A DNA stretch of 64,000 nt from Paraspadella gotoi (taxonomy: Eukaryota > Animalia > Chaetognatha), in the NCBI GenBank assembly GCA_051294375.1, contig CM119266.1:19355657-19419656 (forward strand), in the 5' to 3' direction. Every line of letters begins with the position of its first letter. The stretch's first letter is position 1. This document shows, one piece after another, positions 9,801 to 18,660 of the stretch. The notes beneath the pieces are model-generated. The model was not told where the DNA came from, did no database searches, and saw only the letters and a list, made by a program, of their open reading frames with translations. Position numbers and translations under genes: made by a program.

Positions 9801-12800
9801 GAGGTCTAATGTAGGTAAACGCAACAACTTGGTATGATCACGACAAAAATACTATTAGCCTATTCGAGTTTTCGATTCATTAATGCCGCAAATGACCGCG
9901 TTCTCTCTTCAGGTTTAAGTTACCTTCGGGAGAGGCATCAAATCATTCACCGAGACGTAAAGCCTTCGAATATTCTCGTCAACTCGAGGCAAGTAACTCG
10001 GAAGAATTATTTATTACCAACATGATGTGAGTAAAAACCAGCTATACAGGAAGCACTATTTATATTTACACTTTTTGCATCACATTTTATATTTTTATTC
10101 TGTGATGTTTTTTGGCAAAATTTTGAAAAAGGGTTTCAAAAACCTATTAATCAAAATTACATAAATACAAATCATGCAAGCTTTATGATAAAATTGTTGT
10201 TTTTATCCTAATCATTAAATATAAATATTTTTTATAAAAGGTATTTAGAATTATTTTTAAAACAGCTCATATCAAGCTTTTAATTAATCAGAGGTGAAAT
10301 CAAATTGTGCGACTTTGGCGTCAGCGGTCAGTTAATAGACTCGATGGCCAACTCGTTTGTGGGAACACGATCGTATATGTCCCCGGAGAGGCTTCTCGGT
10401 AAGATTCCGTATTAGAAACGTACTTAAACTTCACATCAAGTATTCAAAGCCTATGGGAATTATATTAATAATATTTCTTTCAAAATCATCGCATGCCCGA
10501 GAAGAATTGTAATATAAGAATAAGAATATATTTTGAAAGAAAGAAATAAATAAATTTAAAAAAAAAGAGAGAAAGAAAGAGACAGAGAAAAAAATAGTGT
10601 ATGGTCTGTTTTAATATTTTACCCCTCTCTCTCTCTCTCTCCCTTCCTTCCTTCCTTTATCTTTTTTGTTTCTCTTTTTAATAAATCTAACTATTTGGAA
10701 TAAATTTGTTTTAAAATTTGTTTTAAAAACACAAGGAACCCATTACTCGGTACAAAGCGACATCTGGTCCATGGGTTTGTCTCTCGTCGAGTTGGCGTTG
10801 GGAAAATATCCAATCCCTCCTCCGGATCCACGAGTCATCGAACGGATCTTCAACGCAAGCGACGGCGCCATCGAAGTATCGCCGAGACCGAAGAACGCGG
10901 CGCTCCTTTTCGAAACCGTCAAATATACAGGCATGACAATATGCCAAATGCCAAAATCCCCAATTTATAATGGCTTTCTTGAAACTGGAAATTCCAATTT
11001 ACTTCTTATGTAAAATCATTATAAATGTTCTATGGCAACATCTGGGTTGCCTGTGATGCCCATTGGATGGGGCATATCACTGTTGGCTTTGGGGGCTTCC
11101 GACCTTCAGAGACGCGGTTACCCTAGGACGGTCTCGCTTTGCCAACGCAGAGAGTAGTCGTTAGGACTGTGGAATGTGGATGGAACGCAACGTCAGGGAN
11201 NNNNNNNNNNNNNNNNNNNNNNNNNNNNNNNNNNNNNNNNNNNNNNNNNNNNNNNNNNNNNNNNNNNNNNNNNNNNNNNNNNNNNNNNNNNNNNNNNNNN
11301 NNNNNNNNNNNNNNNNNNNNNNNNNNNNNNNNNNNNNNNNNNNNNNNNNNNNNNNNNNNNNNNNNNNNNNNNNNNNNNNNNNNNNNNNNNNNNNNNNNNN
11401 NNNNNNNNNNNNNNNNNNNNNNNNNNNNNNNNNNNNNNNNNNNNNNNNNNNNNNNNNNNNNNNNNNNNNNNNNNNNNNNNNNNNNNNNNNNNNNNNNNNN
11501 NNNNNNNNNNNNNNNNNNNNNNNNNNNNNNNNNNNNNNNNNNNNNNNNNNNNNNNNNNNNNNNNNNNNNNNNNNNNNNNNNNNNNNNNNNNNNNNNNNNN
11601 NNNNNNNNNNNNNNNNNNNNNNNNNNNNNNNNNNNNNNNNNNNNNNNNNNNNNNNNNNNNNNNNNNNNNNNNNNNNNNNNNNNNNNNNNNNNNNNNNNNN
11701 NNNNNNNNNNNNNNNNNNNNNNNNNNNNNNNNNNNNNNNNNNNNNNNNNNNNNNNNNNNNNNNNNNNNNNNNNNNNNNNNNNNNNNNNNNNNNNNNNNNN
11801 NNNNNNNNNNNNNNNNNNNNNNNNNNNNNNNNNNNNNNNNNNNNNNNNNNNNNNNNNNNNNNNNNNNNNNNNNNNNNNNNNNNNNNNNNNNNNNNNNNNN
11901 NNNNNNNNNNNNNNNNNNNNNNNNNNNNNNNNNNNNNNNNNNNNNNNNNNNNNNNNNNNNNNNNNNNNNNNNNNNNNNNNNNNNNNNNNNNNNNNNNNNN
12001 NNNNNNNNNNNNNNNNNNNNNNNNNNNNNNNNNNNNNNNNNNNNNNNNNNNNNNNNNNNNNNNNNNNNNNNNNNNNNNNNNNNNNNNTGAGAGAGTTCAT
12101 CGCTGACGCGATTCACAATCATAAATTTACGCGTAGCAAACTTGTAAAAATGAATAAGAACCACTCCCACAAACTGGAAAACTAACGGTAACACTAACTG
12201 GCATTAAAAATTAACAAATGTTCATTTGTCTAGGTCATTTTGAGTCTTCCGAGTTTTCTTCAACTTTCTTTCAAGCAGAGCTTGTCTCACTTCAGCCATT
12301 TTAGATTTCGTAGAGTGATTTTCTTGAATGACGTTAGAAAGTTTTTCCGAAAACGCGAAAGCCGTGCCGCGTGAAGATTGAGACGAACTAGATCGTGACG
12401 ATTTGTCTTTTCGGCTGCGTGAAGTCGAACTCGAATCATCTCTGAATCTGTGCTTGGCGAAAGCATAGGACGGCGTGTAGGCTTTGAATCCAGACGCTGC
12501 ATCCTCTTCGTCGTCGCTTTGATACAAACTGCGTCCGGCGTGTATAGAAGCGATAGAGCTCGTCGCTGGAGCCTTTACGATCAAGTCGGTGAGAATTTGG
12601 ACAACAGTGTCTAGCGATTTTCGTGGACGCCCGTCCTCGTCAAGCAGTTCGGGTTTGAGTTTGCCCGTAAAAGTCCCACCGAAAACTCCCGTTCGGTGGT
12701 TGTGAAAAGTCCCGATGGCCGCAGTTTCTTTTACCTTGTGATTACTGTGATTACTCCGCGTCGAGTGAGATTGACTGTGATGAGAGTGGGGAATAATCGG

Positions 12801-18660: not shown

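What the first reader, a model, noticed from the sequence alone, without database searches (positions are those of the whole stretch)
10931..18043. Midnolin gene nested antisense inside an intron of MEK
Seen: the midnolin ORF lies between the MEK exon encoding [12 protein letters not shown]... and the exon encoding DYIVNQPPP. It is gap-free contiguous with the last two MEK exons, so nesting does not depend on the scaffold gap. Its CDS has no introns in an otherwise intron-dense region. A likely 5' UTR intron runs from a GTAAGT donor at 17396 to the acceptor at 16371. Established: MEK-ERK signalling induces and phosphorylates immediate-early transcription factors, which are midnolin substrates. 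Inference: this may be a retroposed or intron-lost midnolin coupled to the pathway's kinase by co-regulation or transcriptional interference, i.e. an inducer plus eraser locus.
Basis: partly seen in the sequence, partly recalled or inferred. Interest (0 to 1): 0.7.

Follow-up and report, generated by a model that had tools for sequence, protein, structure and literature searches.

The report
Phospho-reader midnolin nested inside MEK gene
Inside an intron of an animal's MEK kinase gene, on the opposite strand, sits a transcribed and strongly diverged copy of midnolin (an adaptor that sends proteins to the proteasome without ubiquitin) that carries an extra phosphate-reading FHA domain, which would likely let it pick targets by phosphorylation, while its position inside MEK is probably an evolutionary accident.

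Summary
The nesting is real. One spliced RNA contig joins MEK1/2 exons on both sides of a 1380-aa minus-strand ORF. A second contig covers that whole ORF without a coding intron. Corrections: a 114-nt MEK exon (ending QEPMAIFELL) is missing from the window, probably in the N gap, and the spliced 5' UTR donor is 17214, not 17396.

Only 1 of 141 midnolin-like database proteins has an FHA (a degenerate one), 0 of 70 other loci have one, and no paper holds both words.

The same RNA run holds a second, more canonical midnolin, so this gene is likely a diverged, probably retroposed duplicate.

The 'inducer plus eraser' coupling to MEK found no support. Nested duplicates are common, and no serum- or cAMP-response element lies in the 1.7 kb 5' of the ORF. 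Best reading: a lineage-restricted midnolin paralogue that likely adds phospho-recognition; untested. This scan had not reported it before. Interest 0.58.

The parts
6844..18660 (+). Host gene: MEK1/2 (MAP2K1/2). Coding exons 6844-6943 (read from sequence), 7439-7599, 8081-8176, 8511-8619, 9527-9669, 9913-9988, 10292-10398, 10736-10930, one 114-nt exon not in the window, 18044-18158, 18516-18660; 3' UTR to at least 18844
   Evidence: splice sites; RNA contig numbering; MEK1 hits
10736..10930 (+). MEK exon [12 protein letters not shown]..., followed by a GC donor at 10931
   Evidence: RNA record 803-998 = 10735-10930; no GT within 12 nt upstream of the end
11020..11199 (.). High-copy dispersed repeat at the left edge of the gap; probable cause of the gap
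   Evidence: copies at 56041-56213 and 32284-32367; depth above 10,000 in all four runs
11200..12087 (.). 888-N scaffold gap; likely holds the missing 114-nt MEK exon and the rest of the midnolin 3' UTR
   Evidence: location inferred by exclusion
12222..16364 (-). Intronless ORF, 1380 aa: midnolin-like protein with an inserted FHA domain (P0001)
   Evidence: RNA contig over 12088-16370
15801..16019 (-). Ubiquitin-like domain (aa 116-188)
   Evidence: pLDDT 94-98 in core blocks; top Foldseek hits are human midnolin on the proteasome
15630..15767 (-). Catch1 half (aa 200-245)
14016..14345 (-). FHA domain (Pfam core aa 699-767, 14270-14064) with G702, R703, S717, H720, N741; K742 replaces the usual Gly
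   Evidence: residue roles from PMC6468809 passages
13216..13355 (-). 27-nt (9-codon) tandem repeat, 5.2 copies, in the Catch linker
12576..12731 (-). Catch2 half (aa 1212-1263) with GxFxG motifs kept (G1226-F1228-G1230-F1232-G1234)
   Evidence: 54 bits against a homologue profile; motif role
12255..12326 (-). Divergent C-terminal helix (aa 1347-1370) followed by a Lys-rich basic patch; predicted proteasome and importin contact
   Evidence: 10.8 bits, against at least 29 for the 25 best non-seed homologues; role
16371..17214 (-). Midnolin 5' UTR intron, 844 nt, GT..AG
   Evidence: table 5
17215..17396 (-). Midnolin 5' UTR exon (contig starts at 17396; true start not known)
18044..18158 (+). 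MEK exon (D)YIVNQPPP..., the 3' boundary of the host intron

Best explanation
The locus is a transcribed, intronless, fast-evolving midnolin gene with an in-frame FHA domain, nested antisense in a MEK1/2 intron; it is likely a retroposed duplicate whose FHA would bind phosphothreonine and so bias which nuclear proteins its Catch domain hands to the proteasome, and the nesting is probably incidental. Shown: nesting, splicing, the intronless CDS, and the order UBL, Catch1, FHA, Catch2, C-terminal helix on one transcript. Inferred from the human pathway: the C-terminal helix binds importin and PSMD2, the UBL sits on PSMD14, and Catch1 and Catch2 fold together around a substrate strand. Inferred here: the 962-aa linker, which human midnolin can largely lose, took up an FHA that pre-docks phosphorylated substrates or scaffolds. 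My odds per step: nesting 0.93; FHA on the same mRNA 0.95; duplicate rather than sole copy 0.7; still a proteasome adaptor 0.65; FHA binds pThr 0.6; FHA steers substrate choice rather than location 0.35; cis-coupling to MEK matters 0.1.
For: RNA contigs. FHA E 1.5e-14, 54.6 bits against a cut-off of 20.7, with best PDB matches Vps64, RNF8, Cep170 and SLMAP. The Gly-Arg, Ser, His and Asn that PMC6468809 names for phosphate binding and site stability (passages) are all present. The N-K-T form also occurs in 4 of 22 comparison FHA domains. Catch GxFxG motifs are kept. UBL, Catch1 and Catch2 fold with pLDDT 82-98, and human midnolin is the top Foldseek hit. The human linker of 111 aa is poorly conserved and largely dispensable (PMC10617673 passages), so it tolerates inserts. 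Duplicate status: best UBL-Catch1 identity to 82 aligned homologues is 40%, against a median best of 73% for the others. X9 holds a second contig matching only 15736-15771 at 80-90%, whose flanks read in frame as V-E-T-G-L-A-L-H-H-P and L-S-D-D-Q-I-N-S-F-L, close to the family consensus (translated by hand; consensus). Its estimated word depth is about 44, against 29 for this gene (a poor measure of expression). All 15 listed variants in the ORF, from four runs, keep the frame open and fall outside the folded domains (weak, the tables were cut). A second UBL-Catch1-FHA protein exists (P0117).
Against: Only 42 of 63 strongly conserved columns are kept (10/14 UBL, 15/22 Catch1 region, 17/27 Catch2), and the C-terminal helix scores weakly, so adaptor activity may be reduced or changed. 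The second midnolin contig rests on 36 matched nt plus two 30-nt flanks. It was not seen in DNA runs, which were laid only at 90% likeness, so it could come from another animal in the run. P0117 has lost the phosphate-binding residues, and no Catch2 or C-helix is detected in it. Its FHA does not group with this one in a tree (0 of 200 bootstraps; AU p 0.21). The UBL-Catch1 join has support 62 with a long-branch warning, so shared ancestry is open. No protein-level evidence exists, and there is one RNA run only. No genome was available to look for a parent or for synteny.
Confidence: 0.5

Rival explanations
1. One reading: midnolin is kept inside MEK because the two are co-regulated or interfere with each other, forming an inducer plus eraser locus.
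For: Nesting is real and both transcripts occur in one run. NGF induction of MIDN depends on ERK1/2 and ERK5 in PC12 cells (PMC5517452 abstract). A C. elegans paper reports host induction by nested genes (PMC12274878, search listing and start of abstract only). The midnolin 5' end lies about 650 nt from a MEK exon.
Against: Nesting is common and tends toward divergent expression in Drosophila. No CArG, CRE or EGR motif lies in 16371-18043 (weak). 0 of 70 other midnolin loci show MEK exons (weak). MEK output is set mostly after translation, so shared transcription adds little (own knowledge).
Confidence: 0.1
2. The FHA positions or regulates the protein (for example, recruits it to phosphorylated chromatin or damage scaffolds, or closes on its own phosphorylated linker), and substrate choice stays with the Catch domain.
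For: RNF8's FHA is among the best PDB matches; that FHA acts as a localisation module (own knowledge). The protein holds 20 S/T-P and 14 S/T-Q sites. The FHA lies over 400 aa from either Catch half.
Against: The PDB matches are all near 27 bits and do not single out RNF8. S/T-P and S/T-Q counts are unremarkable for a Ser/Pro/Gln-rich linker. Recruitment to a place also narrows substrates, so this overlaps with the best explanation.
Confidence: 0.2
3. The gene is a drifting or repurposed duplicate: the FHA is a tolerated passenger or the adaptor function is decaying, and the canonical copy does the work.
For: Long branch (1.81 against a median of 0.34), weak C-helix, longest linker seen (962 aa, next 709), degenerate state of P0117, 9 of 15 listed variants non-synonymous.
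Against: A 4.1-kb ORF stays open in the window and in the RNA contig. Phosphate-binding residues and GxFxG motifs are kept. No listed variant falls in a folded domain.
Confidence: 0.15
4. Assembly artefact: a misjoin places midnolin in MEK, or a chimera makes the FHA fusion.
For: There is an N gap beside a repeat, the window has base errors in MEK exons, and DNA contigs break at microsatellites between midnolin and MEK exon 18044.
Against: RNA from another study joins MEK exons across the region and covers the whole midnolin ORF on one contig. DNA contigs of three runs tile the ORF.
Confidence: 0.05

Closest known systems
Human midnolin (MIDN) and the midnolin-proteasome pathway (PMC10617673; 10.1101/2025.02.22.639686; PDB 9wbg, 9nkg, 8vqp)
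   Same: UBL, split Catch1/Catch2 with GxFxG motifs, and a C-terminal helix with a basic patch, in the same order.
   Different: 1380 aa against 468; Catch linker 962 aa against 111; an FHA domain in the linker; divergent C-helix; intronless CDS; apparently a second copy.
Long insect midnolins (Anopheles P0011, P0034; Drosophila Stuxnet named as the orthologue in PMC10617673)
   Same: Very long Catch linkers (615-709 aa) and similar total length.
   Different: No FHA in the two Anopheles proteins by Pfam or by a local FHA profile; Stuxnet itself was not scanned.
P0117 (unnamed, ENA, 430 aa)
   Same: UBL and Catch1-like stretch followed by an FHA (Pfam E 1.4e-6); 31% identity to P0001 over 99 aa of FHA.
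   Different: Phosphate-binding Arg, Ser and His are lost; no Catch2 or C-helix detected; singleton; common origin not shown.
RNF8-type FHA adaptors of the ubiquitin system
   Same: An FHA joined to a module that acts on protein fate; RNF8's FHA is among the best PDB matches.
   Different: RNF8 is a RING ubiquitin ligase; here the partner module is a ubiquitin-independent adaptor, and no RING is found.
Intron-nested antisense gene pairs (PMC5174743; 10.1101/2023.05.02.539096)
   Same: An intron-poor, probably duplicate gene inside a large host intron.
   Different: Host and guest belong to linked pathways in mammals; nothing tested here shows that this matters.

Membership tests
Midnolin | N-terminal ubiquitin-like domain | tested here: met
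   PDB sequence hit; model pLDDT 94-98; ubiquitin fold Z 15.1, rmsd 1.3 over 76 aa. The Pfam ubiquitin model itself did not hit.
Midnolin | Catch1 and Catch2 halves in order, with GxFxG zipper motif | tested here: met
   motif definition
Midnolin | C-terminal helix with basic NLS that binds PSMD2 | tested here: inconclusive
   10.8 bits, E 0.0024 in a small set; EN..T.SK and a Lys-rich patch are kept, Arg residues are mostly replaced
Midnolin | Ubiquitin-independent degradation of bound substrates | not testable with these tools
   needs a cell or in vitro assay
FHA domain | Profile match above the curated cut-off | tested here: met
   54.6 bits against 20.7, full model 1-67; Atlas hits are FHA clusters at 0.91-0.92
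FHA domain | Phosphate-binding Gly-Arg, Ser-x-x-His, Asn | tested here: met
   G702, R703, S717, H720, N741
FHA domain | Beta-sandwich fold by prediction | tested here: inconclusive
   single-sequence model pLDDT 38.5; unfolded in the long model, whose alignment had no FHA rows in place
FHA domain | Binds phosphothreonine peptides | not testable with these tools
   needs a peptide library or pull-down
MEK1/2 (MAP2K1/2) | Kinase exons best matching MEK1/2, with MAIFELLDY motif | tested here: met
   motif recovered from RNA
Intron-nested antisense gene | Guest transcript lies within a host intron on the opposite strand | tested here: met
   host exons on both sides in one contig; guest intron reads CT..AC on +. 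The guest 3' end runs into the gap, so overlap with the missing MEK exon cannot be excluded.
Retrogene | Intronless CDS | tested here: met
   exon-split loci in other animals
Retrogene | Intron-bearing parent in the same genome | tested here: inconclusive
   second canonical contig in X9; no genome held
Retrogene | Poly(A) remnant or target-site duplication | not testable with these tools
   3' end lies in the N gap; insertion looks old

The most novel reading that the evidence does not exclude
This animal lineage has evolved a phosphorylation-gated, ubiquitin-free degradation adaptor: a second midnolin whose FHA catches threonine-phosphorylated nuclear proteins, possibly ERK products, and whose Catch and UBL feed them straight to the proteasome. 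It would be a natural counterpart of phospho-degron ligases that needs no ubiquitin. The MEK nesting would add a feedback only in a narrower version (about 0.07).
Probability: 0.3. Interest if true: 0.82.

Novelty: new variant of a known kind. Interest (0 to 1): 0.58.

Why it matters
How midnolin substrates are chosen and timed is an active question. In the two core papers I searched (passages and two sections), selection is by an exposed beta-strand and FG zipper, and 'phosphorylat' did not occur in that context. A natural midnolin with an intact phosphothreonine reader in its dispensable linker would show that ubiquitin-free degradation can be made signal-dependent. It also offers a ready design for engineered midnolin degraders (PMC12888917 and PMC13079998, search listing and start of abstract only). 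The claim is testable with one gene synthesis and a point mutant. The nesting in MEK, taken alone, is ordinary.

Tried and rejected
No whole genome is held, so there was no search for a parent gene or synteny. No run holding the stretch is on record as RNA; X9 was treated as RNA because of its spliced joints. Word-index protein searches with P0001 regions 100-260 and 1190-1380 found nothing among proteins of 759-2415 aa; with P0117 only itself. P0117 in metagenome contigs: 69 pattern matches, none a relative. Runs X10 and X11 (other organisms) laid at 80% gave nothing on midnolin; X11 matched one MEK exon. The single-sequence FHA model was too poor to use. The Catch1-Catch2 complex job gave no verdict (score 0.18, mark 0.34, alignment not used). 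The 12-residue ETGL..QALE spacing looked like a lineage mark but occurs in 18 of 83 aligned rows, so it was rejected. Shared rare residues between the two midnolin FHAs (6) did not exceed some unrelated rows (up to 11), so that was rejected too. A direct splice from 10930 to 18044 is in phase, but RNA shows 114 nt between. The bacterial promoter scan is not relevant to an animal. My first translation of MEK exon 7439-7599 was in the wrong frame and was redone. Literature: 'midnolin' + 'FHA' 0 papers; five-term search with 'forkhead-associated' listed 20 papers, none holding midnolin; FHA + UBL + proteasome search gave 1 unrelated paper; 'stuxnet' + 'midnolin' + 'ortholog' gave 4 papers. Most subscription journals are not covered, and bioRxiv supplements (e.g. 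orthologue alignments, Fig. S13 of 10.1101/2025.02.22.639686) were not seen. Earlier scan notes: none relevant.

Full report
The window is animal DNA (integrin beta, septin, mitochondrial carrier, trypsin, PAP2 and BTB genes). No whole genome is held for it, so the argument rests on the window, public runs, and protein and locus searches.

Observation. A 1380-aa ORF runs on the minus strand from 16364 to 12222. It matches human midnolin in two blocks, aa 111-246 and 1205-1263. The plus-strand exons on either side hit human MEK1 best. An 888-N gap lies at 11200-12087, next to a high-copy repeat; from 12088 to the last MEK exon there is no N.

RNA settles the nesting. Eleven runs were listed, nine hold half or more of the words, and none is on record as RNA. 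I laid six of them. Run X9 behaves as RNA. One 1559-nt contig carries MEK exons from 7437 to 18844 in order, and my exon model reproduces its record numbering exactly. A 4514-nt contig covers 12088-16370 in one piece and is spliced to 17215-17396 across an 844-nt intron whose ends read CT..AC on the plus strand. So the CDS is intronless, transcribed and opposite to MEK. This is one run, and contigs give neither strand nor level.

Corrections. The MEK contig holds 114 in-frame nt between 10930 and 18044. Their end reads QEPMAIFELL (by hand), and a probe finds no match in the window. The exon most likely lies in the gap, so midnolin sits in the intron before exon 18044, and its 3' UTR may approach or overlap that exon. 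The spliced donor is 17214.

The overlooked feature. Pfam finds a full FHA domain at aa 699-767 (E 1.5e-14), in the 962-aa stretch between Catch1 and Catch2. G702, R703, S717, H720 and N741 correspond to residues described as binding phosphothreonine or holding the site (PMC6468809 passages; alignments). The usual Gly after the Asn is Lys, a form also seen in 4 of 22 comparison domains. The FHA lies on the same RNA contig as the rest. In human midnolin this linker is 111 aa and largely dispensable (PMC10617673 passages).

How rare is it? A search of 1.84 billion representatives gave 298 hits; 150 were listed and none passed 1e-30. Of these 150, 141 are midnolin-like and 9 are FHA-only. Pfam finds an FHA in 1 of the 141 (P0117) and in none of the 113 that show both Catch halves. 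The 148 unlisted hits were not examined. None of 70 metagenome loci of other midnolins holds an FHA. 'Midnolin' with 'FHA' gives 0 papers in the held library. P0117 has a UBL, a Catch1-like stretch and an FHA that has lost its phosphate residues, and no detectable Catch2. It is a singleton. Trees neither show nor reject a shared origin.

A likely duplicate. Over UBL and Catch1, the best identity to 82 aligned homologues is 40%; the others' best is 73% at the median. At 80% likeness X9 shows a second contig matching only 15736-15771. Its flanks read in frame as V-E-T-G-L-A-L-H-H-P and L-S-D-D-Q-I-N-S-F-L, close to the family consensus (by hand). The matched 36 nt cover residues where this gene departs from the consensus, which suggests a close relative rather than a stray animal, but I did not show it in DNA. 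Genomic loci from other animals have coding introns. An old retrocopy that entered a MEK intron and gained a 5' UTR intron and an FHA fits best; genomic duplication with intron loss is not excluded.

Is it still an adaptor? UBL, Catch1 and Catch2 are modelled with pLDDT 82-98 and human midnolin is the top structural hit. GxFxG motifs are kept. Against this, only 42 of 63 strongly conserved columns are kept and the C-terminal helix scores 10.8 bits. The 15 listed variants keep the frame and avoid the folded domains, but 9 are non-synonymous and the tables were cut.

The MEK link. Mammalian MIDN is ERK-inducible (PMC5517452 abstract), which makes the pairing attractive. But 12-17% of mouse and human genes host a nested gene (10.1101/2023.05.02.539096, section 5). 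In Drosophila, nested pairs typically arise from young duplicates and diverge in expression (PMC5174743 abstract). I found no CArG, CRE or EGR motif in 16371-18043 and no MEK exon near midnolin in 70 loci. Both tests are weak. I give functional coupling about 0.1.

Papers seen: passages of PMC10617673 and PMC6468809; passages and sections 5 and 7 of 10.1101/2025.02.22.639686; abstract and section 5 of 10.1101/2023.05.02.539096; abstracts of PMC5517452 and PMC5174743; search listings only for the rest. No supplements were read.

Verdict. The nesting is real but probably ordinary. The FHA-bearing midnolin is a new variant of a known kind, shown at DNA and RNA level, with an untested but cheap-to-test role in phosphorylation-dependent, ubiquitin-free degradation. 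Interest 0.58.

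Noticed in passing
window 9989 and 10931 (+): The MEK gene appears to use two GC-AG introns (GAG|GCAAGT and CAG|GCATGA); both fit the RNA contig numbering.
   Followed up: partly
window 9540, 9664, 9903 (+): Probable base errors in or beside MEK exons: a missing T at 9540 and an A at 9664 that makes a false stop, read otherwise in runs X1 (both) and X9 (9664); an inserted A at 9903 in three DNA runs. 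An annotation of this assembly could call MEK broken.
   Followed up: yes
window 15736-15771; run X9: Second, more canonical midnolin contig, estimated word depth about 44.
   Followed up: partly
protein P0117: Unnamed 430-aa UBL-Catch1-FHA protein on a contig of at most 2249 nt; its tail has faint Catch2-like words but no significant score.
   Followed up: partly
window 8914-9474, 18295-18417, 26076-26243, 49044-49124: A second high-copy repeat family; a near-identical tandem pair of about 240 nt lies in a MEK intron.
   Followed up: no
window 17396 (-): The midnolin contig begins exactly at a GTAAGT; this may mark an alternative donor or a graph break.
   Followed up: no
window 1042-4079 (-) and about 20440-31075 (-): A multi-exon gene without Pfam match in three ORFs lies head to head with MEK; an integrin beta gene ends tail to tail about 1.8 kb after the MEK stop.
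   Followed up: no
not in the window: Recalled, not checked: human MIDN and MAP2K2 both lie on 19p13.3, and fly stuxnet and Dsor1 both on X, un-nested and megabases apart. If true, old linkage could have eased a local move, a rival to retroposition.
   Followed up: no
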